DNA from: Squalus acanthias | Taxonomy: Eukaryota | Assembly (NCBI GenBank): GCA_030390025.1 | Contig: CM059432.1 | Location: forward strand, 17,734,001 to 17,798,000 | Direction: 5' to 3' | DNA: 64,000 nt | Part shown: positions 34,101-56,801 of the stretch, piece by piece | Numbering within the stretch: position 1 is the stretch's first letter | How the letters are laid out: the number at the start of each line of letters is the position of its first letter | The notes under the pieces: model-generated | The model's database searches: none | What the model saw: only the letters and a program-made list of their open reading frames with translations | What the model was told of the DNA's origin: nothing | Position numbers and translations under genes: made by a program

Positions 34101-37100
34101 CAATCCATGACCATAGAGGATGGAGGATTCCAACTCACTGCACCAGACGGAAGATGAGTTTGCATTAGCAGGGGAGATTAGGGTCAAATGACTTCAGTTA
34201 GGGTAATCTGGTGGAACATCGCAGGGTACGTTTTTATCTTCAGCAGTCCCAGCACAGAACTTTGTGCACCAGGAACACACATTGAGAAGTCGGATGTGCT
34301 CGCCCATGACTTTCTTTCCCTTGTTGACAAGCCTTACTGTACAGAGCTCCAACAGTACTTGAACCAGGCCTTTGTTCACTTGTACCTTCCTTTGTGCCCT
34401 GAGCTGCAGATCGGCATTAACACTAAGCAGCTCCTTGCAGACTGCGATGTTACCGATTTCAACGCTTAGAAACAATGGGTTGCAGCCGTCCTGTGGAAAG
34501 AAAGAAAGAAATTGAGACCTAGGAAAGAAAGAATGTAGGAAGAAAGACTTGCATTTATATAGCGCCTTTCACAACGTCAAGATGTCCCAAAGCGCTTTAC
34601 AGCCAATGAAGTACTTTTGAACTGTAGTCACTGTTGTAATGTGGGAAACACAGCAATCAATTGATAATGACCAGATAATCTGTTTTTTTTAGTGATGTTG
34701 ATTGAGGGATAAATATTAGCCAGGACAGTGGGGAGTACACCCTTGCTCTTTTTCGAATAGTGCCATGGGATCTTTTACGTCCATCTGAGAGAGCAGACGG
34801 GGCCTCAGTTTAACGTCACATCCAAAAGATGACACCTCCGACAGTGCAGCACTCCCTCAGCACTGCACTGGAGTGTCAGCCTTGAGTTTGTGCTCAAGTC
34901 CCTGGAGTGGGCCTTGAACCCACAACCTCTGAGGCGAGAGTGCTACCAACTGAGCCACAGCTGACAGATAGATGTATGTAAGAAAGAAAGCATGAAAGGA
35001 AGAAAGAAAGTTAAATACCACAGACTGTCTAATTAGTGTTTAAAAAGGTGACATTTAGGTATTATTTAGCAGTGACAATAAGGGTGAAATACTTGTTGCT
35101 TATTAGAAATAAATTAATGTCTGTGTTGAAATTTCACCCCGAATGTGGATACTGTGGCTCAGTGGGTAGCACACTCGCCTCTGAGTCAGAAGGTTGTGGG
35201 TTCAAGGCCCACTCCAGGGACTTGAGCAGATAAAGCTAGGCTGACACTCCAGTGCAGTGCTGAGGGAGTGCTGCACTGTCAGAGGTGCCGTCTTTCAGAT
35301 GAGATGTTAAACCAGGTGGATGTAAAAGATCCCATGGCACTATTTCAAAGAAAAGCAGGGGAGTTATCCCCGGTGTCCTGGCCAATATTTCTCCCTCAAC
35401 CAACATAACAAAAACAGATTATCTGGTCATTTTCACATTACTGTTTGTGGGAGCTTGCTGTGCGCAAATTGGCTGCCGCTTTTCCCACAAGTACTTCATT
35501 GGCTGTAAAGCACTTGGAGACGTCCGGTGGTTGTGAAAGGCGCTATAGAAATGCAAGTCTTTCTTTCTTTTTTACTGTTATAACCCGACCAAGTGTTGCA
35601 ATCTTGTAAAACACCCGGCCTTTGGCGGTGATTACCAGGGACTGGTAACTTTATAACTGATAAAAGATCATAACATGTACATGAGAATTCGTGTTGCCAC
35701 TGCCTGGTTTTGGACTGGACAGTCTGTCTTTAAGCGAGATGTCTGGAGATTTTTTAATGTGTAAATTGGAGTTGATCTTCCGATCAGGGTTACAACTTGG
35801 CATTAGTTGGACGATGCACGACTCCTTCGTTCTGTTAATTGGCTGACTCCCCCCACCTGATTTTGAGGAGTCAGCTTCATTTACAAAGTTTGAGGCAAGC
35901 TCCTGGTCTACTTTGGGCCGAGCTTTGGGAGTTCGATCAGGGCAGGCTGTAGGAAAGCTCTTAAAATGTTGGCAGCAATTGCACAGGATGCTACTATTTT
36001 TAATGAAACATTCCAGTCTTTGCAAAGGCCCAGTGGATGGCACAATAAACATAGAGGCAGGAAACTGAGTACTTGTTTGTCTGTTAGATTGCTTATTACT
36101 AGCAACAGTATGCACAGGGTGAATTACGATTTCTGTCAGCTGCCTCTGCAAAGTACAGAAATAAACATCTTTCTAGTAAGTGAAAATCAATTAAGAGGCA
36201 TCTGAGTCAAACAAAGGGGAGATTAATATCTTAATGTCCATTGAATTATTACAGCAGCCATTCAATCTAAATGGCAGTATCTTGTGTATCTTTCGAAAGC
36301 ACTGCTTGAATGTTAACAAGGGAACAGTGTGCTAATTTTTTGTTTTAACTCTGACATATCTTTACAAGATCTTAAAACAAGTCAGTTAAGGTATGTGGCA
36401 CAGATCAAAGAGCCAGGCCAACTCAGTCAGTGACTCTTTAATTGCCGACAGTGTCTGAAGTGAAGAAATGGGTCGAAGCCTGCGCGTGGGGAACAGGACC
36501 AATGAGTCTTTTGGCGGATAACTCTGTGACCGAGGGTTCCAATGATAGGTTTGTACCAGATTACCTGCACTTAGATCAGCAGTCTGCAGCCCGTGGCCAA
36601 CAGAGAAACTGGGCTCGTAGTTCAGATGTATGTTCAAAGATGGCTCAGAGAAGCATCTATTACATTGATATATCGAGGAGGATAGTAAAGTTTATAATTA
36701 CGAACATACGGAAAGGAAAAGGACAAGAAAAGACCAACTGGTCCATCCGGCCTATTTCATTCAGACAAGAGCCTTAAGCCAATTAGGATAAAAGTTCTGG
36801 GAAACTCATCTCTAACCTCTGAAGGAAATCTCCAGCATACTGCAGTAACTGATAACACTGATCACTGCTGGCTTCCCCTACCTTCTATAACTCAAGATGT
36901 CTACCACTCCCAGGAACATATGCTATTCTGTACTTAGTTCTGATTATTTACTTGTTTTATGTTAAGTAAATTGTCGATTGGTTTATAGCCTGATTCTTGA
37001 TATGATATTCGATTGCCGACTAAAGATGAGAATTACATGGCTGCAGGGTTATCTGTTCAAACTTTGGTTCTCAATATTACTAACCAAGGTAGTGGACGCG

Positions 37101-40100: not shown

Positions 40101-42219
40101 ACCAATAGAACCAAAGGGTACTGGTACAGGGATTGTCATCAGCCTGGGAGAATGTTATCAGTGGGGACCCACAGGGGTCTGATTTGGGACCCCTTTTGTT
40201 TAATATTTTTATAAATGATCTAGAGCTAGGAGTCATAAGCGCAGTGGTTAAATGTGCAGATGATACAAAGCTAATGAAGGTGGTAGACAACATAGCTGAA
40301 CAGGATAAGCTACAGAAGGATTTGAATATACTTGGGAACTGGGCAGACTGGTGGCAGATGAAATTCAGTGTAGAGAAATAAAAAATGCTTCACACGGGGA
40401 CAGAAAATTCAGGAAGGGACTATTACTTAAATGAAAAGAAAATAATGTGCATGGGAAATGAAAGAGATCTAGGGTCTTAATTGACAATAAATTGAAGCTA
40501 TCGCAACAATCTCATTGGCAGTGATTATCCAAATCAGATGTTGAGATGTATTAAAAGGTCAATATTGAGCCGAAATAGTGAGCTCATCCTGCCACTTTAT
40601 AATTCATTGGTGCGACTGCATTTAGAATACTGTGCACAGTTCTGGTCACCAAAGTACAAAAAAGATATTGCAGGTATTGGAAGGATCCAGAAGAGAACAA
40701 CTAGAATGTACTGACGAAGGGTCATCGACCTGAAACGTTAACTCTGTTTCTCTCTCCACAGATGCTGCCTGACCTGCTGAGTATTTCCAGCATTTTCTGT
40801 TTTTAACCAGAATGATGTCTGGGTCTGTTGTAGACTAATTGATTGAGATTGATTGATATAATTAGTCAACAACTCCATATCGTTGTATCGTGCGACTACC
40901 AGCTTGGTAGATGGCGAACCAAATGGAGCTTGGGTCTTTCTTCGTTTTGCATGACACATCTCATTCAACCTCTGACCTATCAGAGGAATGAATAGGAGTA
41001 AAAGAGGAGTCAATGTTTTTGCTGGTTGTCAGTTATTGATCAGCAAGATTGAATGTGTTAGGTTATTCTCTCTGTCCCACTATTATACCCATCTAACATC
41101 AAAGAAATGAAACAGAACCAGAAAATCTCATTCATTAGCTGCTACTAAAAAAGAATTTCAAGCCCCAATTGCCCATCGAACGAGCAGGCCTTTCTTTGAG
41201 AAGGCCAACATCAACAGTTGTTCCCAGAGTGAGATTGGACTGATCATATAAAAACATCTGTGAGAAGTCGCACAACACCAAGTTATAGTCCAACAGCTTT
41301 ATTTGAAATCACAAGCTTTCGGAGCGCTGCTCCTTCGTCAGGTGAAGTGAAGAGATGCATATGGGCACAGCATAAATAGTCAGAGAACAATGCCAGATGA
41401 TTACAGTTAATCTTTCTAACTGCCCTTTATCACACCTCGGCAGAGAGATAATCACGGCAATCAAAGGTGTGGAGACACACGACAACGCAAAAATCGTCGA
41501 GCAGAAACTGATAGCCAAGTTCCGCACCCATGAGGACGGCCTCAACCGGGATCTTGAGTTCATGTCACGCTACATGTAACCCCACCTGACGTAGAGTCAT
41601 CCAGACTCGAGCCGTCGTTGGCTTGTTCTCTCTACACAGATGCGGCCGGACCTGCTGTGATTTCCAGCAAAATAAGTTTTTTGTTTTCCATACAGACCCC
41701 AGCATCTGCCACATTTGACCCCTTGTGACCCCACCTCATTGTCTTTGATGTAATGTTTTCCTGACTGACCTGTTTGGACACCATCCACACCTTTGATTGC
41801 CGTGATTATCTCTCTGCCGAGGTGTGATAAAGGGCAGTTAGAAAGATTAACTGTAATCATCTGGCAGTGTTCTCTGACTATATATGCTGTGCCTATATAC
41901 ATCTCTTCACTTCACCTGACGAAGGAGCAGCGCTCCGAAAGCTTGTGATTTCAAATAAAGCTGTTAGACTATAACCTGGTGTTGTGCGACTTCTCACATT
42001 TGTCCACCCCAGTCCAACACCGGCATCTCCACATCATATAAAAACATGGATAGGGCCAGTGTATTCAGCTACAGCCATTAATGATGAAGATTCTCTATTA
42101 CCTACCTTATCTTGTATGAATCGAGCATCTTTGTTTGAGGACTTCAGCAGCATCTGTACTATGTTGAGAGCACCGCTTGGTCGACTAGCTGCACAGTGTA
42201 GAGGCAACTGATCCTTATG
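4031..42219 (-). CDS. trpn1: TRPN1/NompC mechanosensitive TRP channel, partial gene span: 9 exons encoding 341 aa of the N-terminal ankyrin-repeat array; 5' and 3' exons lie outside the window
   Basis: Nine GT-AG phase-0 exons splice into one open frame. The peptide is colinear with recalled NompC/TRPN1 ankyrin repeats, e.g. EGQTPLHxAAx[29 protein letters not shown]......KKGVx[14 protein letters not shown]....P.VV.TLLGFGA.V...[16 protein letters not shown]. Confidence 0.93.
6190..6872 (+). repeat. Complex (GT)n micro/minisatellite with higher-order unit ~gtgtgtgcgtgagtgtgtgtgtgtatttattag
   Basis: Read directly; source of the spurious HT-rich ORF. Confidence 0.95.
7501..7602 (-). CDS. trpn1: TRPN1 exon: [34 protein letters not shown]
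   Basis: 102 nt; acceptor ctctacag, donor GAG|gtaaga. Confidence 0.93.
8710..9110 (+). mobile_element. tRNA-derived SINE family B (possibly Meta/MESC-domain type); other copies at 29829-30230 and 32920-33330
   Basis: tRNA-like A/B boxes, core ctggttcactaatgtcctttagggaaggaaatctgccgtccttacc, and a tail shared with the LINE at 59900-62040. Confidence 0.75.
9639..9839 (-). CDS. trpn1: TRPN1 exon (two ankyrin repeats): [67 protein letters not shown]
   Basis: 201 nt; acceptor ttcactag, donor AAG|gtaagg; overlaps ORF 9576-9830. Confidence 0.93.
10255..10405 (+). repeat. Three copies of a ~50-bp unit (caggactccggcaatgcgtggagagggatacttc)
   Basis: Read directly. Confidence 0.8.
10930..11330 (-). mobile_element. 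CR1 LINE 3' end
   Basis: ORF 11024-11365 ([34 protein letters not shown]) and (ttcttatg)n tail. Confidence 0.9.
12835..12933 (-). CDS. trpn1: TRPN1 exon: [33 protein letters not shown]
   Basis: 99 nt; acceptor ttatag, donor AAG|gtagaa; translated by hand. Confidence 0.93.
12985..14742 (-). mobile_element. DeuSINE-type SINE (12985-13252 and 14598-14742) split by a CR1 insertion (13253-14597)
   Basis: The SINE breaks at gtgccatgggat and resumes at ttttacatc..gacagtgcagcactccc; ORFs 13422-13991 and 14004-14585 are CR1 RT ([18 protein letters not shown]). Confidence 0.88.
15998..16706. mobile_element. PIF/Harbinger-type MITE
   Basis: TIRs gggctggatttt / aaaatccagccc; 3-bp TSD TTT (15995-97 and 16707-09); host CR1 resumes seamlessly. 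Confidence 0.85.
17227..20860 (-). mobile_element. Near full-length CR1 LINE (3.6 kb): ORF1 SGNH-esterase remnant plus ORF2 APE endonuclease and RT, frameshifted
   Basis: [30 protein letters not shown] (ORF1); [24 protein letters not shown] (APE); [19 protein letters not shown] (RT). Confidence 0.93.
21132..21812. mobile_element. Second copy of the same MITE family, opposite orientation
   Basis: TIRs gggctggatttt / aaaatccaaccc; internal blocks shared with 15998-16706. Confidence 0.82.
24791..24892 (-). CDS. trpn1: TRPN1 exon: [34 protein letters not shown]
   Basis: 102 nt; acceptor gttacag, donor AAG|gtattt; not in ORF track, translated by hand. Confidence 0.92.
25092..26170. mobile_element. 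GC/CpG-rich non-autonomous Harbinger-like element containing a CR1 3' fragment (25418-25765, minus)
   Basis: Ends ggggagaaattt / aagtttctagccc; repeated subterminal tagcgcc motifs; related to 44378-45121 and 49075-49218. Confidence 0.65.
26600..27065 (-). mobile_element. L2 LINE 3' end
   Basis: [29 protein letters not shown]2 tail ggcgctgtataaata and (ttg)n. Confidence 0.85.
27365..27815 (-). mobile_element. DeuSINE-type (SacSINE1-like) tRNA SINE
   Basis: tRNA head, Deu-like core gctgcactgtcagaggtgctgtc, L2-type tail. Confidence 0.8.
28512..28613 (-). CDS. trpn1: TRPN1 exon: [34 protein letters not shown]
   Basis: 102 nt; acceptor atgcag, donor AAG|gtacct. Confidence 0.92.
30290..30800 (+). 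mobile_element. Vingi/Ingi-type LINE 3' end; a second copy at 38840-39304 is split by a SINE fragment (~38946-39165)
   Basis: Encodes [64 protein letters not shown], then ccatacga and a (gaa)n tail. Confidence 0.7.
31033..31281 (+). mobile_element. 3' end of the LINE family seen at 59900-62040
   Basis: Near-identical to 61790-62040 ([33 protein letters not shown]). Confidence 0.85.
31520..31618 (-). CDS. trpn1: TRPN1 exon: [33 protein letters not shown]
   Basis: 99 nt; acceptor ttttcag, donor AAT|gtgagt. Confidence 0.92.
33410..33735 (+). mobile_element. CR1 3' end inserted among Penelope-like fragments (33330-33950)
   Basis: CR1 tail sequence; downstream aggtcatcgacctgaaacgttaactctg..gatgctgcctgacctgctgag is a PLE-type 3' UTR. 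Confidence 0.75.
34386..34490 (-). CDS. trpn1: TRPN1 exon: [35 protein letters not shown]
   Basis: 105 nt; acceptor ttccacag, donor AAG|gtacaa; ankyrin repeat. Confidence 0.9.
34540..34965 (-). mobile_element. DeuSINE-type SINE, full length
   Basis: tRNA head, Deu-like core and L2 tail. Confidence 0.85.
35150..35572 (+). mobile_element. DeuSINE-type SINE, full length
   Basis: gtggctcagtgggtagcacactcgcc..ggttcaagg head; aaaggcgctatagaaatgcaagtctttc tail. Confidence 0.85.
37145..37660 (+). mobile_element. DeuSINE-type SINE containing a 91-bp Penelope-like insert (37223-37313)
   Basis: Insert flanked by an 11-bp direct repeat TCCAGAGACTT (37212-22 and 37314-24). Confidence 0.85.
37263..37304 (-). 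ncRNA. Minimal hammerhead motif in the 91-bp PLE insert
   Basis: Minus strand TCAC-CTGAGGA-A-GGGGC..GCTCC-GAAA-GC-TT-GTGA. Confidence 0.62.
37784..37818 (-). ncRNA. Minimal hammerhead motif, second PLE family
   Basis: Minus strand GTT-CTGAGGA-A-AGGTC(ACT)GACCT-GAAA-CG-TT-AAC. Confidence 0.62.
38445..38817 (-). mobile_element. RTE LINE insertion with an inverted 5' segment
   Basis: (gaa)n tail and 3' end on minus (38445-38520); plus-strand RTE peptide [32 protein letters not shown]; 13-bp TSD GACTCAGCAGTAT. Confidence 0.85.
39505..40095 (+). mobile_element. L2 LINE 3' fragment
   Basis: ORF 39430-39981: [36 protein letters not shown]. Confidence 0.9.
40100..40850 (+). mobile_element. Older CR1 fragment containing a short Penelope-like insert (~40709-40808)
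   Basis: [28 protein letters not shown]; the insert is flanked by agaatg. Confidence 0.8.
40708..40742 (+). ncRNA. Minimal hammerhead motif, second PLE family
   Basis: GTA-CTGACGA-A-GGGTC(ATC)GACCT-GAAA-CG-TT-AAC. Confidence 0.6.
41309..41345 (-). ncRNA. Minimal type I hammerhead ribozyme motif (PLE), in TRPN1 pre-mRNA sense
   Basis: Reverse-complement copy of 41912-41948. Confidence 0.7.
41912..41948 (+). ncRNA. Minimal type I hammerhead ribozyme motif (PLE)
   Basis: TCAC-CTGACGA-A-GGAGC(AGC)GCTCC-GAAA-GC-TT-GTGA. Confidence 0.7.
42106..42219 (-). CDS. trpn1: TRPN1 exon (most 5' in window): [38 protein letters not shown]
   Basis: 114 nt; acceptor ttttcag, donor AAG|gtaggt; ankyrin repeat. 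Confidence 0.9.
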
Positions 42220-42496: not shown

Positions 42497-44290
42497 TAAA
42501 ATTTCTGGCAGGGGAGAGGCGGGCCTAGAAGTTGGGCTGCTTGGTGAACACTTTTCAAGGCGCTACACGGCCTGCTAAGGCCCCAAAATGGCGCCCGGAA
42601 GTGCGCCTTCCGCCATATAGGTAGAGGAGGTAGCGCTCGCGTCAGGAGCGCACGCAGACAGCGTTTAAAGTCAAAAATAATTTTTGTAGTTGAGGGCCCT
42701 GCGGTTCGTTTTTGGACTTTCCCAGTGCTTCACCGGCCACGTGTTGACCTCTCAGCACAACGTGACGCTAATGGGCATGAAGGTCCTCTCGCCAGCGCTA
42801 TTGAAAGGGATCATCCAGTACTTGCAGGTTAGTTGCTGGTTCACTACTTCTGGCTACTCTTTGACTTCTGGGCATTTTTCACTGACTTCAAAGTTCACTT
42901 TGTCTGCACAGGTAGAGATTTTGCTGCTTTTTGCACTGTTTTTGCTCTTTGACTCGCAACGTGTCTGGCTGCAGATATGGGTGGTCTGGTAAGGCTGGGA
43001 ATAGAACATGATTGGGAGACACCACAAAGCAGGCGAAGCTGCCAGAGGAGGTAGGAGGAGGAGGAGGGCACTCAACAGGAGGCCATATCCACCGAGGGTC
43101 TTCAGGGAACACTTCTTCTATCCTTAACATGACTGAGGAGCAATGTATGAGTCGCTTTCGCCTTACCAAGGCTACGCCACCTGCTCCAGGCTCAACTACA
43201 GCCTCAACCCAGGGCATGAACAGCACAGTCTATGGCTGTCAAGGTCACTGTCGCCCTCAACTTTTATGCAACGGGCTCCTTTCAGGCTGCAACAGGTGAC
43301 ATTAGCAACATCTCCCAGTTTGCAGTGCACCGATGTATCAGGGAGGTCACCGAGGCTCTATACACCAAAAGAAACACCGACATCTCCTTCCCTATCTCAC
43401 ACCCAAGTCCCGTTCACCCATCACCCCTGCTGCTCGCTGACCTACATTGGCTCCTGGTCAGGCAACGCTTCGATTTTAAAATTATCATCCTTGTTTTCAA
43501 ACCTCTACATGGTCTCGCCCCTCCCTATCACTGTAACCTCCTCCAGCCCTACAACCCCTCTGAGATCTCTGCGTTCCTCCAATTCTGGCCTCCTGAGCAT
43601 CCCCGATTTTAATCGCTCCACCATTGGCGGCCGTGCCTTCAGCTGCCAAGGCCCCAACCTCTGGAATTCCCTCCCTAAACCTCTCCACCTCTCTCTCCTC
43701 TTTTAAGGCGCTTCTTAAAACCTACCTCTTTGACCAAGCTTTTGGTCACCTGCCTTAATAGCTCCTTATGTGGCTCAGCATCAAATTTTTTTTGATAACG
43801 CTCCTGCGATGCATCGAGACATTTAATAACTACATTAAATGTAAGTTGTTGTTGCTGTTGTTGTTATTGACAGAGTGAAGCAGGATGAACAAGCATGAGG
43901 TATTGCCCGCATGGTGGACAGTGCGTTACGTGTTCCACATCAGCACCCTGGAATATTTATCAATCGGAAGGGATTCCACTCCCTCAACGTACAACTGGTT
44001 TGAAACCACAGGCAGTGCATCATGCAGGCCTGCGTCTTGCTATCCCGGCAGCAGTCATGACTCTTTCATTCTGTGCCAGTCCTCCGCGGTGACTTTATTC
44101 CAACCAGGCCGCCAAGGTACAAGCTGACTATTGGGCAAGAAAGGTTATCGCTTCCGGTGGAGTGCGGTGAGTGCAGCAGTGGGGACGACTCCAGTTAGGA
44201 ACCCGAAGATGCACAGCACGCCTCCAATGAGAGCCATGCTGCCACAAGGAACCCCAATGCAGCAAACAATCGACATGCTCAAGCAGCACG
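42497..44290 (+). mobile_element. Degenerate PIF/Harbinger transposase gene, interrupted by an L2 fragment (~43395-43865)
   Basis: [79 protein letters not shown]. Confidence 0.85.
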
Positions 44291-44377
44291 AGAGAAGCGG
44301 CCTCGGCAGAGCATCGCGAGAGACCCGAGGAGTGGCTAGATAAGAAGCACGAGAGAACCAGCAGTCATAGAGTCTAA

Positions 44378-45121
44378 GGGCTAAAAATTGAGTCGCGCCC
44401 CACTTTTAGCGCCCCGAAAAAATTAGCGGCCCCGCGCCGGAACTTCAGTGGTTGCGCCCCAAGAGGGAAGCGGGGCGCCACTGGAAGCACCCCGCATCCC
44501 TCTTGGGGCGCTGCGAGTCAATATCGTGGCGCTATGTGCTGCAGCGCCAGGCGCTGCGGCACGTCGCGCCGCGGTATTGCAGGCCTTCCTCCCCTTCTTA
44601 AAGGGGAGGGACCCTGCGCAGCGCGAACCGGGGCCCAGCTGGGCCCCCAGGGATCGGGAGTGCCGGCAAAAGAGCCCGGCACTCAAGAGAAGTGCCGGGC
44701 TCTTGGAGCGCAGCCGGCACTTCACGGTGGGGGGGCTTCACGGGGTCCGGGGACAGCAACGGGGGCAGGTGCTGGCAGGCGGCCAGCAACAAAAATGGCC
44801 GCCTGCCACCTCCCCTTTAAATATCGCCGCCCCGGCCGCACGTACGCCTCCCTGAACCCGTCGGACATAGCGTCTGGCGGTAAATCAGGGGGCGCGACTG
44901 AAGATCGCGGCTGGAGCGCGAGCGGGGTGCTGCGCACGGCGATGACGTCATCGCCGGCGGCGCAGCGCCACAGGGCGCTACCGGCTGGCGCCGCCGCTAA
45001 CCTCCCGCTGAATTTTGCGGGAGGCGTGGGTAGCGCTGCGCCCGGGCGTTAGCTGCTTTACGCCCCATTAGCGCCCTCTTAAGGCGCTAACGGGAGGCGC
45101 AAGCAGCTGAATTTTTCCCCC
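44378..45121. mobile_element. CpG-rich non-autonomous Harbinger-like element
   Basis: Ends gggctaaaaatt / aatttttcccc; tagcgcc subterminal motifs as at 25092-26170. Confidence 0.65.
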
Positions 45122-50633: not shown

Positions 50634-51131
50634 TTTCAAATAAAACTGTTGGACTATAACCTGGTGTTGTGCGACTTCTCATTTTTATAAAATAGAGGGA
50701 AGGGCACACAGTTGATTAGCTGGCTGTCCTTTCACCTCTAATGGGATCTATTCTGAATCCAATCCAGAATGAGGGAAGTCCTCTCTCTCGGCTGGCTGCA
50801 AGGGTCTTGTGTGAAATATGCAGCTTCAACCCATTTCCTCGTGGGCGTGAGCCCATAGCACAAAACTGCTCCTAATTTGGTACTAAATTAATGATGTCAT
50901 TCAAAGGCAATAATGGTGGCTTGTGTATTATATAGAAATAGGTGCGGTAAGGGTAAGGGTAAGTAGAGAGAGGTTTACTCTGCCGCCGCTTGTGCTAATC
51001 CTGACCGTGGAAATGTTCGTACCGCTTGGTGTTCTGGTGCTAGCATTAAAATTCCTCGCTTTGCTAAGCACAAAATTTTATCCCATCAACAAAAAGAAAG
51101 AAAAAAGGGAGATAAGAGGAATCCTGGCTGT

Positions 51132-51270
51132 ACACAATACCTTATATGGCAGTGATGTCTCATCTACGTCATAATCGGTGCCGAACACATCATGTCGCCA
51201 ATCCCTTACAAGGCAGTGAAAGCTCACAAAAATCTAACACATCATAATAGACGCCTCATATATTATAAGC
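51132..51270 (+). promoter_or_regulatory. Protamine Z1 promoter: CArG box CCTTATATGG (51140-51149), CRE half-site CGTCA (51167-51171), CArG-like CCTTACAAGG (51204-51213), TATA-like TATAAG (51264-51269)
   Basis: Motifs read directly; colinear with the Z2 promoter. Confidence 0.7.
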
Positions 51271-51350
51271 TGTGAAAGATATTAAAACATCAAAAAAAAG
51301 ACAAAATACTGGGATTCAAGAAGCAAAAGAAAGCTGAAAAGGACACAATA

Positions 51351-51506
51351 ATGCAGTGCGGTAAGCCAAAAAAGAAACCAGAAGCTTGTTTTTTACGAAG
51401 GCGGCACTTGCGACGCCTCCATATATGCAAAAGGGACAGATCTAAAACTTATCGAAGGAGACGCCACATTAGAAGATTGCCAAAAAGACGAAGAAGAAGA
51501 TGTTAA
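51351..51506 (+). CDS. Sperm protamine Z1-like (scylliorhinine Z1 type), 51 aa, intronless: [51 protein letters not shown]
   Basis: Translated by hand: 18 Arg, 7 Lys, 4 Cys. Closely resembles the recalled dogfish Z1 (..KPKKK...[39 protein letters not shown]). Upstream TATA; AATAAA at 51638 and 51654. Confidence 0.92.
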
Positions 51507-51637
51507 AAGTTGACTATGCCAGATTCATCCAGCCAACTAGTAACATTCTTAATGAATTTTGTGAAGAAAAATTCACTTCGTGAAGAGATCCTCTCTGAAA
51601 TCAATGCTGTCGCTGCTTTATATACTGCGGCAATTTG

Positions 51638-51659
51638 AATAAACTTCAAATCAAATAAA
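51638..51659 (+). terminator. Tandem poly(A) signals (AATAAA x2) of the protamine Z1-like gene
   Basis: AATAAA at 51638-51643 and 51654-51659, about 130 nt after the stop, followed by GT/T-rich sequence. Confidence 0.7.
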
Positions 51660-52719
51660 CATTGTGTACCTTGTTTTCAATTAAGTGTCCTGTTGATCCT
51701 CATTTACTGATCTATGATGTAACCATTTATAATCGCCTTTCTTGTAACTTTTTTACTCTTTTACTGTCTCTTTAATACTATGGGCTTCCTTGGGGCAATG
51801 CGGAGCCAATACAAAGTGGTCCACCAGATTCAGCTCCTGAGGTGGCAGATCTCAACTGGGACATCAAAATCAGTAGCTTCTGAATCGAGAATGGGGAAGA
51901 ATAGCCAAAGCTCCTGCTCCTGAATGCTATCCAATGACCTTCACTGGGAAAGTGCACTTGGGGGGATTTTAGAGCTCAGCTGCGACGCCACTGACATGTA
52001 ATGGTGCGCTGCTGTTCAATCCTGGCCTAAGTTGTCTGGCTCCGGTGGATCTGCAGAGGATGGGGCCAAGACCATGCTTTCAACCCCCCGCACCTTTGGC
52101 AGAAAATATATGTTCACCCACTCGTAAATGGGGAAACGCGGTCTCCAAGTTTTCCGTAATTAAGCCTAATCGAGCGCTGGGTGCAAGGACCCGCCTGCCC
52201 TGGGGGTTTAACAGAAGAGCCTGTGCAAATGGTCTCAGAGCGCAGCCGTACGCAGACCCCATCAACAAGGGGAATTTTATTTATGTTTGACTGGAATGAA
52301 AGCTACTCTTCTGACTCCGGCAGTCCTGTGTGCATTGACTGCAGCTGAGACCATTCAGTTCTGTAATGAATCCTATTGGGGTGAAATCACAACATGCAAT
52401 ATTTTATGTCTATATTAAATTCCTGAAGAAGTTATGTCGAGATACAAAGGAGCAACAGATACAAATGATCGTGTATCCGAAGCACATCCCCAGCATAGAC
52501 GCTATCATTCCTCTAAATGTTAAATCCGGTGACGTAAAGGATGAGCTCCCCACCACCCACCCAAAAAAAATGTTGTTCGTGTTAATTGGACCTTATTCTT
52601 GATACTTACATTTGGAGTTTGTCCAGATATACAAAGAGAAAAGAGAGGAAAACCCAACAAGTAGACTTCCAATATCGGGCTGCTGTGTCGCCGGCAGCAG
52701 TGCCTCGGGTAAATCTTAA

Positions 52720-53235
52720 AGGGGTAGGGAAGACGACCGGGATAGGGGGGCGACCGGGAGAGGGGGGCGACCGGGAGAGTGGGCAACCGGGAGAGAGGGG
52801 CAATTGGCAGAGGGGGGTGATTGGGAAAGGGGGCGATTAGGAGAGGGAGCGATCAGGGGAGGGGGATCGGGAGAGGGAGCGATCGGGGGAGAGAGCCGAT
52901 CGGAAGTGGGAGATTGGGGGGGGGAGACGGGGAGAGGGGGGCGATTGGGAGGGGGAGATTGGTAGAGGGGAGCGATCGGGTGAGGGGGAAATCGGGAGAG
53001 GACGGATCGGGAGAAGGGGGCAATCGTGAGAGGGGGATCGGGGGAGATCGGGAAAGGGGCATTGAGAGGGACGTTCGGGAGAGGTGGGGATCGGGGGAGG
53101 GTGCAATCAGGAGTGGGAGCGATCGGGAGGGGTTGGCGACGTGATTGGAGGGTCGAGATCGCAATTGGAGGTGTCAAGCTCCCAATCAGGGCAGGGATGT
53201 GGCGATCAGGGGTGGGTGCTTCGATCGAGGTGGGA
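52720..53235 (+). repeat. Purine/G-rich low-complexity repeat ((c)gatcgggrg units), probably the interior of a non-autonomous DNA transposon
   Basis: Dozens of G3-G7 runs spaced by gatc/gatt; source of the Pro-rich and Gly-rich ORFs. Confidence 0.8.
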
Positions 53236-53344
53236 GATCAGAAATCTATCTAATTTCTAGAAGGCATTTACAGAGTTCCTCATGAAAGGCTATTAGTTAA
53301 CCTCAAAGCTGTGGAGATTCAGGGAAATTCTTATGTAAAGATAT

Positions 53345-55363
53345 GGGGTGAAATACTATAACGCTGGAAAATGGGCAGGAGCACAGTAAAGTGAGATATG
53401 CCTGTACACAGTCAAAAAGCGCAGGCTGACGTCAACTTCGTGCTGTCTACTAATTACCATAATTGTAGTGCAAAACGGAACGCGCTCCTGACAGGCTGTG
53501 TGCTCAGCAGGGGGCCGAAGTTCACGTCGCTGAAGCAAGACAAACTTTACTTAAAGCTAGCCTACTCCTCCACAAGGCAGTCTGCAGCTCTTAAAGGTGA
53601 GCTGCCTTCTGCTGATCAAAAATGCCAAAAGTGCTTCAGCACTAACACAAATGGCTCAACAGGCCAGGGAAACGACACCCAGGGTCTCGGACGCAGCACT
53701 TGAGCTTTGTGCAGGGGGTTAATACTGGAAGAGAGGTCCTCTACCCACAGGGGCCTCCAGAAAGAAGGATGTGGGACCAGATCGCCGAGGCAATGCCGCC
53801 TGGGACCCCAGGACCTGGCTCTAGAGCCCAAAGAAGTTTCATGACCTCAAACGAGTGGTCAAGGTCAGTGAATACATCTTCAAAAGCCATCTCCTACCAA
53901 CTACATCACTAGCCTCACACACTGCTCAATGCATGACCACCCCACCCCCACCCCCGCCCCCCATCACTCACATACCAACAATCTCTACCAAACACAAGGC
54001 ACACCTCACATTCCTAGCTTCACCTGTTGGAGGAGACAGTGCTGGCAATTCTTGGCAGGGGCATGGCTGAGCCCTTGGCTAACGGCGGGGCTGAAAGAAT
54101 ACAAGATGCCAGTATCCTCATACATTATCCTCCTTCTCACATCCCACTTCACCCGCATCCCAGAATCTCTTCTGATTTACAAGCTGCACATGGTGTAAGC
54201 ATGCACCTCTTGCTTTCCCCTCCTCACCTCATCACATTTCTTCTTCATTTCAGACACCCAAGAAATCCAGCCTGCCAGCCAATGCTTGACCCAGAAGAGG
54301 GGGAGGAGAGTGACGAAAAAGAAGAAACATCATCACTCAATTTCACACTCCCAGCCACCAGCTCCTCCACTGAAAGTCAGCAGCCTTCCACCAGCCATGC
54401 TGCAGCCATTGGGGTAGCACTGTGTAACAGCACTAGGATAGGCAGGACAGTCACTAAGGGAATGCACAAGGGTGATTAGTTGATTTTTTGATGTAATATT
54501 GGATGCATATATGGATAAAGTTGGATTGGAAAGTTTGCTTTGTGCTTGCTTTTATTTCAGCATTGTGGCCAAGAGGACGCTGTGATGGTCAGTAACAGAG
54601 GGAAAGGAAGTTGTGGGACAGATGTTGAAAGGGAATTGGGGTTGTGTTCACTGGTACCGCAGGCGGAGGATTCGATCCCAGATATCCCGGCCAGAAAGGG
54701 GCTGTCTGGGTTGCCTCCTTCCTTCCGCTTCCTCTCTTCCGCTTCCTCCTCCCTCTGCTTCTCCTCCCTCTGCGAGCAGTTTGTCCCCTTTGCTGCCTCT
54801 CCTCTATCTCCATGTGATGCTGCAGCCCAAGAGGGACTGCAGCTAGAGTCCCCGGGACTGGGAACAAGTGGTCTTCTTAGAGGCCTTCATTTAACAACCA
54901 AAGCTTTACAAACACCCAACAGCACTCCCTGCACACTTTAACAACTTTTTAAATGTATTGCACCAAGCCACAACTCCAATAAAATGTAAGGAAGCCTGTC
55001 CAAAAGCAAAAAACTACACTTAGCTGAAAGTTGTGTGTGTCCCTTTAAGAAGCGCTGGTAGTGGCTCCGTTGTACTGCTGCACGCACGTTCTTCCGTGCA
55101 TGGTTTGGAGAGGGCGTTATTAGCAGTGGCGACATCCAAAATCAGAGATCGTGCGTCAGTTCACACGTTGCACGCTGAGTGATGTCACGATCTGGATCAT
55201 TTAAATACGGGAAGCGAGAGCTGGCAGCAGCAGTGCTGCCAACCTGCCGCAAAATGGCGGCCGCCGCGTTCCGCACTGGAAGCCAGCAGAAGCGAGGCAG
55301 CCGCCATTTTTTTCCACCAAACCGGCCTTAACAGCCGACGTTAAAAGGCTCCAAATTCGCGGC
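53345..55363. mobile_element. Degenerate Harbinger-type element (Myb/SANT-like ORF remnant on plus, acidic transposase-tail-like remnant on minus)
   Basis: Ends ggggtgaaat / aaattcgcggcc; RRMWDQIAEAM Myb-like remnant. Confidence 0.5.
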
Positions 55364-56291
55364 CAACGTATCAAAATATTCCAGCTGGAAGGTGAGGGGA
55401 AAAAATCTAACCAATGGGGCTCGCCGTGAGATGGCCCACTCCAGCAAACTCTGGGCCAATAGGGAACTGGGTAGAACAATGGCCGATAAAGTTTAATAAC
55501 GACAGATGTAAACTGCTACTCATTGGAAGGAAACACATGTAACTTTGTGAATTGACTTCAAATAGCTTGGGATGAAGTTGAGAAAAAAGCCAGGGGGTCT
55601 AAGCAAACGCGGCGCTCACATTTTCCAACCAATGCAGACCAGCAAAGCTGACAATGTTGAACCAATGGAATACAATTTAGAGAAAGTCAATGATCAAACA
55701 ATGGGGAGAGAGCGGGAATATGGTATTGAGATAGAGGATCAGCCATGATCATATTGAATGGCGGAGCAGGCTCGAAGGGCCGACTGGCCTGCTCCTGCTC
55801 CTATTTTTCTATGTTTCTATGTTTCTAACTGTACAGTGGTCTGGACAGACCATACCTTGAGCACTATATCTGGCCACTGGGGACAGAGGGGAGCTACTCA
55901 AACACTCGAGGCAGCACAGAGGAGAGCCACAAAGGCTGAAGGCCGGGCTTAAAAGGTCTGTTATGAAGAAAGACTGGCTTTTCATCCCGAGAGGTAATCT
56001 TTTAGAGCGGACAAGACTGTTAATGGTATGGTAAAGGTAAATCCAGTTTTAATTAAACAGTGAGAACAGACTCAGTTGCCTGCCTGCACATTGATAGGTG
56101 TCAGGTGATCAGACATCACGTGATCAGACCTTCAGGAATGCCTCCAACCAGATTTGGCAACTCTATGACACATAAACTTGATTGTACTCAACAATCCACT
56201 GGTGAGAAGTATATATACGAAGCGTAAATATGCTTTTGTGAGTTTTAACCCCATTGTGTAGGCCTGGAGGATAAACTATAGTAGCTTTATA

Positions 56292-56445
56292 CAACAATAC
56301 CTTATAAGGCAATGATACTCGCTCGCATCACAATCAACACTGAGCGCCTCATGTTTAATGTCAAATATGGACCTTACAAGGCCGTGGAAAACTGCAAAAT
56401 CACGGCGACATCACAGTAGGCCAGACCTATGAAAAAACTATAAAA
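56292..56445 (+). promoter_or_regulatory. Protamine Z2 promoter: CArG box CCTTATAAGG (56300-56309), CArG-like CCTTACAAGG (56372-56381), CRE-like CGACATCA (~56406), TATAAAA (56439-56445)
   Basis: Motifs read directly; colinear with the Z1 promoter. Confidence 0.72.
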
Positions 56446-56495: not shown

Positions 56496-56639
56496 ATGAA
56501 GAGGTGTGGGCGCAAGCGCAGGCGCAGGCGCAGAAATGCGTGCAAGCCGAAGAAGCGGCCGTGCAAGCAAAGATCGAGTACTATTGTCAGAGCCCATCTT
56601 GTTCATCGCAGAAGAGCTGCAAGACGTTGCGCTCATTAA
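56496..56639 (+). CDS. Sperm protamine Z2-like (scylliorhinine Z2 type), 47 aa, intronless: MKRCGRKRRRRRRNACKPKKRPCKQRSSTIVRAHLVHRRRAARRCAH
   Basis: Translated by hand: 16 Arg, 6 Lys, 4 Cys. Closely resembles the recalled dogfish Z2 (MKCGRKRRRRRRHACKRKKRACKQRSSTIVRAHLVHRR..ARRCP). Kozak accATG, TATAAAA at 56439, AATAAA at 56796. Confidence 0.93.
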   Translation: MKRCGRKRRRRRRNACKPKKRPCKQRSSTIVRAHLVHRRRAARRCAH

Positions 56640-56795: not shown

Positions 56796-56801
56796 AATAA
56801 A
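56796..56801 (+). terminator. Poly(A) signal of the protamine Z2-like gene
   Basis: AATAAA about 157 nt after the stop; context caaattgAATAAA resembles Z1 caatttgAATAAA. Confidence 0.7.

What the first reader, a model, noticed from the sequence alone, without database searches (positions are those of the whole stretch)
51132..56445. Z1 and Z2 share a colinear promoter built on two CArG-type boxes despite divergent proteins
Seen, first block: Z1 acaataCCTTATATGGcagtgat versus Z2 acaataCCTTATAAGGcaatgat. Seen, 64/72 bp later: Z1 CCTTACAAGGcagtgaaa versus Z2 CCTTACAAGGccgtggaaa. Both then have acatca and a TATA about 60-67 bp after the second box. The first boxes are perfect CC(A/T)6GG, the established SRF/MADS site, and CRE-like half-sites lie in between. 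Inference: the genes arose by tandem duplication and kept a spermatid cis-regulatory module (SRF-like plus CREM-like). I recall SRE-like elements being described in mammalian PRM1 promoters; if verified, this would suggest a deeply conserved regulatory logic.
Basis: partly seen in the sequence, partly recalled or inferred. Interest (0 to 1): 0.72.

Follow-up and report, generated by a model that had tools for sequence, protein, structure and literature searches.

The report
Shared promoter of two shark protamines
Two neighbouring shark genes for small basic sperm-DNA-packing proteins no longer resemble each other in their coding parts but still share the same twice-repeated switch sequence in front of them, which points to a kept sperm-cell control module whose binding protein (possibly SRF) is still unproven.

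Summary
The promoters of two intronless basic-protein genes (Z1, a confirmed homologue of catshark protamine Z1; Z2, name recalled, no database hit) align far above chance (0 of 2000 shuffles; still 0 of 2000 with the four boxes removed), while coding regions and flanks do not. No third copy lies in the window. The module is richer than reported. Each promoter has two units, each a CArG-type box with a GGC(A/C)(A/G)TG flank followed by a CRE-like word at matching distance (26/25 bp, then 35/36 bp), then TATA. In one related shark, Z1 box 2 and both CRE-like words show no listed change; box 1 could not be read. Enrichment of conservation in the named elements is not significant (P 0.15). Both genes lie antisense, probably in an intron of trpn1 (NompC). 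Best reading: an old tandem pair that kept a spermatid promoter under selection. SRF is the likeliest reader (about 50%) but binding and expression are untested, and only 1 of 4 CRE-like words is a true half-CRE. Deep conservation with mammalian PRM1 is unsupported. New variant of a known kind; moderate interest.

The parts
51133..51157 (+). Z1 promoter block 1: CACAAT flank, strict CArG box (51140-51149), GGCAGTG flank; forms an imperfect 20-bp dyad
   Evidence: 21 of 25 letters identical with Z2 block 1; flanks
51166..51175 (+). Z1 unit-1 CRE-like word (contains the only exact half-CRE, 51167-51171), 26 bp after box 1
   Evidence: no difference listed in run X18
51204..51222 (+). Z1 box 2, CArG-like (one C in the A/T core; box 51204-51213) with GGCAGTG flank
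   Evidence: 16 of 19 identical with Z2 block 2; no difference listed in run X18 over 51202-51231
51239..51248 (+). Z1 unit-2 CRE-like word (ACATCA, CpG-free form), 35 bp after box 2
   Evidence: no difference listed in run X18
51259..51269 (+). Z1 TATA-like stretch (TATAAG at 51264-51269); transcription start not mapped
   Evidence: run X13 lacks 2 letters at 51262
51351..51506 (+). Z1 coding sequence, intronless, 51 aa, 18 Arg, 7 Lys, 4 Cys: protamine Z1 homologue
   Evidence: E 1.4e-14 to scyliorhinine Z1 of Scyliorhinus canicula (cluster holds Swiss-Prot P08433); 40 of 51 aligned columns identical; 8 synonymous and 4 replacement differences listed in run X18 over codons 12-39
51638..51659 (+). 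Z1 poly(A) signals (AATAAA at 51638 and 51654)
56293..56317 (+). Z2 promoter block 1: AACAAT flank, strict palindromic CArG box (56300-56309), GGCAATG flank
56325..56334 (+). Z2 unit-1 CRE-like word (GCATCA, not an exact half-CRE), 25 bp after box 1
56372..56390 (+). Z2 box 2, CArG-like (56372-56381), identical in all 10 letters to Z1 box 2, with GGCCGTG flank
56408..56417 (+). Z2 unit-2 CRE-like word (ACATCA), 36 bp after box 2
56439..56445 (+). Z2 TATA box (TATAAAA)
56496..56639 (+). Z2 coding sequence, intronless, 47 aa, 16 Arg, 6 Lys, 4 Cys: protamine-type protein; the name Z2 is recalled, not confirmed by a call
   Evidence: ORF and composition; no hit
56796..56801 (+). Z2 poly(A) signal; the 9 letters TTGAATAAA are shared with Z1
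   Evidence: poly(A) region 50 of 2000 shuffles, weak
42106..42219 (-). Context: nearest trpn1 (NompC) exon, residues 118-155 of the shark reference; the most 5' of nine trpn1 exons in the window. Z1 and Z2 lie 9 and 14 kb to its 5' side on the other strand
   Evidence: residues 1-117 have no match right of 42300 (best 21 bits)

Best explanation
This is the shared proximal promoter of two old tandem protamine paralogues of a shark, kept by selection while the short basic coding regions diverged past recognition. A unit of about 65 bp (CAAT, CArG-type dyad, GGC(A/C)(A/G)TG, then a CRE-like word) was first doubled inside the promoter; the gene with its two-unit promoter was then duplicated. Most likely mechanism: a homodimeric MADS-box factor, SRF, binds the strong distal box and the weaker proximal box, cooperates with a CREM/ATF-type bZIP dimer on the CRE-like words, and switches both genes on together at the TATA box in round spermatids. 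Shown: homology of the promoters, the two-unit layout, protamine identity of Z1 (about 0.9). Inferred: selection on the motifs and a spermatid role (about 0.8).
For: Homology is confined to block1-to-TATA and survives removal of the boxes. It is patchy, with motif islands of 21/25 and 16/19 identity, while the CDS does not align, as expected from selection on sites. Box-to-CRE-word distances match by unit: 26/25 and 35/36 bp. Box 2 carries the same core C in both genes, so the internal doubling came first (inference). Z1 unit 1 aligns with Z1 unit 2 beyond the box (11 of 2000 shuffles) and Z1 unit 2 with Z2 unit 1 (40 of 2000). In run X18, 9 differences are listed in 113 promoter positions, none in box 2 plus flank or the two CRE-like words. 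Synonymous sites of the Z1 CDS differ at 8 of 20 (P 7e-4 against the promoter). Box 1 fits the consensus CArG and box 2 the CArG-like class as defined in PMC5839776 (passage). Three of the four boxes extend their dyad to about 20 bp, which suits a homodimer. In mouse, CREM occupies the Prm1 promoter at -43 on an imperfect CRE, and Srf and Mkl2 promoters are CREM-bound and H3K4me3-marked in testis (PMC3091680 supplement file 2; weak, the table has over 6600 rows). [quoted passage not shown]
Against: No binding or expression data for this shark. Box 1 lies in the unreported end zone of the X18 contig, where 6 differences are unlisted, and the Z2 promoter was not compared with any relative. The Z1 upstream flank is as conserved in X18 (16 of 182) as the promoter (9 of 113), P 1.0. 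Named elements against the rest: 1 of 42 versus 8 of 71, P 0.15. The excess of X18 changes at positions not shared by Z1 and Z2 depends on the alignment: P 0.004 with MAFFT and one other setting, 0.27-0.30 with three settings. X18 changes the T of the box-1 3' flank (51153). Box spacing differs by 8 bp (6.1 versus 6.9 helical turns), which argues against fixed-phase cooperation. Z2 unit 1 and unit 2 do not align beyond the box (1263 of 2000; whole units 259 of 2000). Only 1 of 4 CRE-like words is an exact half-CRE. No listed title or abstract in two searches shows SRF driving spermatid genes.
Confidence: 0.45

Rival explanations
1. Same homologous, selected spermatid promoter, but the boxes are read by something other than SRF: a SOX factor such as SOX30 on the ACAAT word abutting box 1, a nuclear receptor (GCNF or NR5A type) on the CAAGG of box 2, or an unknown germ-cell factor recognising the 15-bp asymmetric word. 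The CArG match would then be incidental.
For: The non-consensus C of box 2 is kept in both paralogues and in X18, odd for a plain SRF site. All four boxes share a one-sided flank GGC(A/C)(A/G)TG, and this 15-bp word occurs 4 times in the window, all here (pattern derived from these sites). (A/C)ACAAT sits 1 bp before box 1 in both genes. Prm1-3 expression is lost in Sox30-null mouse testis (PMC5732304, passage). GCNF and CREM regulate mouse protamine genes reciprocally (PMC2853129, passage).
Against: Both distal boxes are perfect CArG boxes with different cores (TTATAT versus TTATAA), the variation that the CArG consensus allows. Box 2 lacks the AGGTCA half-site that GCNF needs. ACAAT-type words are common: 98 HACAAT in the window. 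The SOX motif itself is recalled.
Confidence: 0.3
2. The promoter, not the gene, was copied: ectopic gene conversion or promoter capture put the same module in front of two unrelated or long-separated basic ORFs.
For: Homology stops at TATA; 5'UTR, CDS and flanks are at chance level. The proteins do not align above shuffles (501 and 735 of 2000).
Against: Promoter identity is patchy with several indels, unlike a recent tract. The 3'UTRs show a weak match (28 of 2000) ending in a shared 9-letter poly(A) word. Both ORFs are intronless, 47-51 aa, with 4 Cys and 3 His.
Confidence: 0.12
3. Neutral remnant of a duplication with no present function.
For: The promoter is not more conserved than its upstream flank in the one relative read.
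Against: Neighbouring DNA of the same duplication has lost all similarity, and synonymous sites differ at 40% between this shark and X18 alone, so 21 of 25 identity between older paralogues is unlikely without selection.
Confidence: 0.05
4. The boxes are intronic SRF enhancers of the host gene trpn1 (a mechanosensory channel), and the protamine genes are bystanders.
For: The module probably lies in a trpn1 intron. SRF and MRTFB act in mouse hair cells (PMC10703445, abstract start, passages).
Against: Each module sits in the same orientation 60-67 bp before a TATA box of a protamine ORF. That paper never mentions trpn.
Confidence: 0.04

Closest known systems
Protamine Z1 (scylliorhinine Z1) of Scyliorhinus canicula, Swiss-Prot P08433
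   Same: 40 of 51 aligned columns identical with the Z1 ORF, E 1.4e-14.
   Different: The record is a protein; no description of its promoter or genomic setting was found. Z2 matched nothing.
CArG and CArG-like boxes bound by SRF homodimers; paired-CArG promoters of muscle and cytoskeletal genes
   Same: Box 1 is a consensus CArG, box 2 deviates by one base (definition in PMC5839776). A consensus plus a degenerate box close to TATA recalls smooth-muscle actin-type promoters (recalled, no call).
   Different: Here the targets are protamine genes; spacing is not phase-conserved (64 versus 72 bp); binding is not shown.
Mammalian protamine (Prm1/Prm2) promoters: imperfect CRE bound by CREM-tau, GCNF sites, an SRE footprint near PRM1 -190
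   Same: TATA promoter of a protamine gene with an imperfect CRE close to the start (mouse Prm1 CREM peak at -43) and an SRE-type site upstream (PMC4607923, passage citing earlier footprinting).
   Different: Two boxes in a doubled unit here; no Pfam match of the shark proteins; host locus trpn1 rather than the SOCS1-RMI2 interval of mammals (recalled). I did not see the sequence of the mammalian SRE, so I could not align it.

Membership tests
SRF-bound CArG element | Sequence CC(A/T)6GG (consensus) or at most one deviation (CArG-like) | tested here: met
   Box 1 consensus in both genes, box 2 one deviation in both (definition)
SRF-bound CArG element | Conserved in orthologous promoters | tested here: inconclusive
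SRF-bound CArG element | Bound by SRF in vitro or in vivo and needed for transcription | not testable with these tools
   needs EMSA, ChIP or reporter
SRF-bound CArG element | SRF and a cofactor present in the expressing cell (spermatid) | not testable with these tools
   Only indirect mouse data; the catshark expression supplement could not be read
CRE / CREM site | Full palindromic CRE (TGACGTCA) | tested here: not met
   The only TGACG in the two promoters is the Z1 half site at 51167-51171, not part of a full palindrome
CRE / CREM site | Exact half-CRE (TGACG/CGTCA; PMC3091680) | tested here: inconclusive
   Met in 1 of 4 units (Z1 unit 1); the other three carry CATCA
Shark protamine Z1 | Sequence homology to S. 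canicula Z1 | tested here: met
Shark protamine Z2 | Sequence homology to a named Z2 protein | tested here: inconclusive
   No hit (47-aa low-complexity query); the name rests on recall
Tandem gene duplicates | Alignable coding sequence or protein | tested here: not met
   CDS 1141 of 2000 shuffles; proteins 501 (local) and 735 (global) of 2000
Tandem gene duplicates | Adjacent, same strand, homologous regulatory DNA | tested here: met
   5145 bp between start codons, both on +; promoter 0 of 2000, 3'UTR 28 of 2000
Dispersed repeat | Further copies away from genes | tested here: not met
   None in the 64-kb window; depth stays flat over the Z1 promoter in runs X13 and X18 while it jumps at a true repeat at 50820-50890; whole genome not held
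Orthologue of the mammalian PRM1 promoter | Protein family match | tested here: not met
   No Pfam family at E up to 1 for either ORF
Orthologue of the mammalian PRM1 promoter | Shared synteny with the mammalian protamine cluster | tested here: inconclusive
   The only other gene identified in the window is trpn1; SOCS1 and RMI2 (recalled neighbours in mammals) were not searched, and nothing outside the window could be read

The most novel reading that the evidence does not exclude
SRF, known as a muscle and immediate-early regulator, directly drives haploid-stage transcription in shark testis through a paired-CArG plus CRE-like module that serves a whole cluster of sperm chromatin genes (Z1, Z2 and perhaps the S-type genes noted about 37 kb further on) nested antisense in the trpn1 mechanosensory channel gene. 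In its boldest form (probability about 0.07) the SRE plus CRE pairing of mammalian PRM1 descends from the same ancestral jawed-vertebrate promoter.
Probability: 0.3. Interest if true: 0.68.

Novelty: new variant of a known kind. Interest (0 to 1): 0.4.

Why it matters
Protamine proteins evolve too fast and are too low in complexity to trace their ancestry; here the promoter keeps a signal that the coding regions have lost. If the module holds across sharks, it gives a way to find and relate unannotated sperm chromatin genes and to test whether vertebrate protamines share an origin. It also offers two short, defined sites on which to test whether SRF has a role in spermatids, for which my searches found no direct report. 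Retention of cis-elements by duplicates, and CRE-like sites in protamine promoters, are in themselves ordinary.

Tried and rejected
Whole-genome scan for the module: no genome is held. Naming Z2: no hit in Pfam, word-indexed search (1 candidate, none at E 0.01), ESM Atlas or 1.84 billion representatives (0 at E 0.001). Expression: no RNA holder listed; run X9 (RNA guessed) covered only 51612-51760 and a repeat, and X11 had no cover over the promoter; neither is evidence. Footprinting used 4 of 23 listed runs and only Z1 (50800-51760); 96 of 136 difference rows were hidden, so run X13 (58 differences over 51051-51760) could not be placed. The 'changes fall outside shared positions' test was significant with 2 of 5 alignments and is not counted as support. 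'Changes toward the Z2 letter' (6 of 9 with MAFFT, 2 to 5 with others; two of them at CpG) likewise. Protein-level homology of Z1 and Z2: not above shuffles. Homology upstream of block 1: rejected (1604 of 2000). The strict CArG at 50871 is rejected as part of the module: it lies in a high-copy repeat. YY1 was considered (recalled core CCAT): only Z1 box 1 has it. RFX2 X-box was considered (PMC4498915, passages: a 14-bp inverted repeat): no matrix was available to score, and the 6-bp spacer does not fit the recalled consensus. Literature: 'scylliorhinine' 0 papers; two of 'scyliorhinine', 'protamine', 'trpn1' 0 papers; shark protamine searches listed no paper on these genes' promoters (listings only). 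One review was not held. The catshark atlas supplement could not be read and may hold srf, crem and protamine expression. PMC3285179 has no mention of SRF in its main text.


Full report
What is there. The stretch holds two short intronless ORFs on the + strand, 51351-51506 (51 aa) and 56496-56639 (47 aa), the only ATG-started ORFs of 21 aa or more with over 45% Arg+Lys among the 11 that reached 28%. Each has an A at -3, a TATA-like word upstream and AATAAA downstream. The first matches scyliorhinine Z1 of Scyliorhinus canicula (E 1.4e-14, the single candidate; its cluster includes Swiss-Prot P08433; 40 of 51 columns identical). The second found no match in four searches; calling it Z2 rests on recall. 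Nine exons of trpn1 (NompC) run on the minus strand from 42219 down to 4031 and match the shark protein P0005 at 86-100%. Residues 1-117 have no match right of 42300 (best 21 bits). The two genes therefore probably lie antisense in a trpn1 intron whose other end is outside the window; this is inferred, since the missing exons were not seen.

Check of the observation. Every word quoted is at its place. The 250 bp before the two start codons align with score 105.5 against 43.4 +/- 6.9 for dinucleotide shuffles (0 of 2000); the best of 992 other tiles scores 67.5 and 58.5. With the four boxes removed the score is 60 against 30.9 +/- 5.2 (0 of 2000), so the likeness is not just the boxes. It is confined to block1-to-TATA. 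Upstream DNA, 5'UTR, CDS and DNA after the poly(A) signal are at chance level (1604, 747, 1141, 1885 of 2000); the 3'UTR is weakly above it (28 of 2000). Of 6 strict and 32 arm-intact CArG-like boxes in the window, the only pairs 40-100 bp apart that include a strict box are these two. One correction: an exact half-CRE occurs once, in Z1.

Each promoter has two units. All four boxes fit CCTTA(C/T)A(A/T)GGC(A/C)(A/G)TG, found 4 times in the window, all here (the pattern was derived from these sites, so this shows uniqueness, not significance). Each box is followed by a word (A/G)C(A/G)TCA(C/T)A(A/G)T, 26 and 25 bp after box 1 and 35 and 36 bp after box 2 (6 in the window, 4 here). Z1 unit 1 aligns with Z1 unit 2 downstream of the box (11 of 2000) and Z1 unit 2 with Z2 unit 1 (40 of 2000), but the two Z2 units do not (1263 of 2000). 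Because unit-specific traits (core C in box 2, distances) are shared by both genes, the unit was doubled before the gene pair arose (inference). Three of four boxes extend their dyad to about 20 bp (5 of 7 letters matching between arms, read).

Relatives. No genome is held. Twenty runs from 9 studies hold the Z1 stretch or part of it, none on record as RNA. I laid 4 of the 23 listed runs on 50800-51760. X13 covers 51051-51760 in one contig (58 differences, places mostly hidden; 2 letters missing at 51262). X18 covers 51121-51295 without gaps and with 15 differences, 9 of them listed. From the table layout I infer that the other 6 lie within about 31 letters of the contig ends, a zone that includes box 1. 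None of the 9 falls in box 2 with its flank (51202-51231) or in the two CRE-like words; one changes the flank of box 1 (51153). The promoter (9 of 113) is far less changed than synonymous sites of the Z1 CDS (8 of 20, P 7e-4) but no less than the upstream flank (16 of 182, P 1.0). The CDS shows 8 synonymous against 4 replacement changes (P 8e-4), so Z1 is a working gene. A test of whether changes avoid positions shared by Z1 and Z2 gave P 0.004 with two alignments and 0.27-0.30 with three; I do not count it. Footprinting is thus compatible with constraint but not decisive, and Z2 was not examined.

How it most likely works. An old tandem pair kept a compact TATA promoter under selection so that both protamines are transcribed together in round spermatids. 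Box 1 is a consensus CArG and box 2 a CArG-like box by the definition in PMC5839776 (passages), and the extended dyad suits a homodimer, so SRF is the likeliest reader, working with a CREM/ATF-type factor on the CRE-like words. [quoted passage not shown] Against SRF: no binding data, spacing out of phase (6.1 versus 6.9 turns), a kept non-consensus C, and no listed paper showing SRF control of spermatid genes (listings only). Promoter capture or conversion, neutral remnant and trpn1 enhancer are less likely.

Comparison with what is known. That shows a resemblance in logic, not descent. The shark proteins match no Pfam family, the locus is trpn1, for which the 73 hits show no mammalian name, and strict CArG boxes arise about once per 11 kb here. 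Works like: a paired-CArG plus CRE promoter. Membership: sequence criteria met, binding untested, orthology to PRM1 not supported. No paper on these shark promoters or on their position in trpn1 turned up, in a library that lacks most subscription journals, where the older shark protamine work appeared. Other papers seen as passages only: PMC1463010, PMC7962346, PMC11979771 (supplement unreadable, and may bear on expression), PMC11607694, PMC11083954, PMC10703445, PMC10454534, PMC4498915, PMC3285179 (no occurrence). An earlier unchecked note places S-type spermatid protein genes about 37 kb beyond the window; I could not test it.

Verdict. Real feature, homologous and probably functional; mechanism plausible but unproven; the deep-conservation claim is not supported. 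New variant of a known kind, interest 0.4.

Noticed in passing
window 4031-42219 (minus strand): Nine exons of trpn1 (NompC), residues 118-458 of the shark reference; the first 117 residues are not in the window, so Z1 and Z2 probably sit in an intron of over 21 kb.
   Followed up: partly
about 37 kb beyond the window's end: An earlier unchecked note reports two S-type spermatid protein genes and a decaying third copy; with Z1 and Z2 this would be a larger sperm chromatin gene cluster, possibly all inside trpn1.
   Followed up: no
window 42106-42219 and 34386-34490: The trpn1 exons read Cys for Phe at residue 126 and Asn for Ile at residue 159 relative to the shark references whose sequences were printed.
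   Followed up: no
window 51040-51080: No difference is listed in run X18 over these 41 bp upstream of the Z1 module, against 16 in the 124 bp before them; it has no counterpart at Z2. A possible Z1-specific element.
   Followed up: partly
window 51387-51389: In run X18 codon 13 of Z1 reads Val instead of Cys, losing one of four cysteines.
   Followed up: no
window 50820-50890: A short high-copy repeat (depth jumps in all four runs) containing a strict CArG box at 50871.
   Followed up: partly
window 52734-53129: Purine-rich 16-bp minisatellite, about 25 copies, between Z1 and Z2.
   Followed up: no
window 43008-43609 and 53550-54900: Broken frames that resemble Harbinger-type transposase and partner genes (resemblance recalled, not tested).
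   Followed up: no
window 44001-45000: CpG-rich kilobase (GC 0.63, CpG observed/expected 0.90) with no gene start identified.
   Followed up: no
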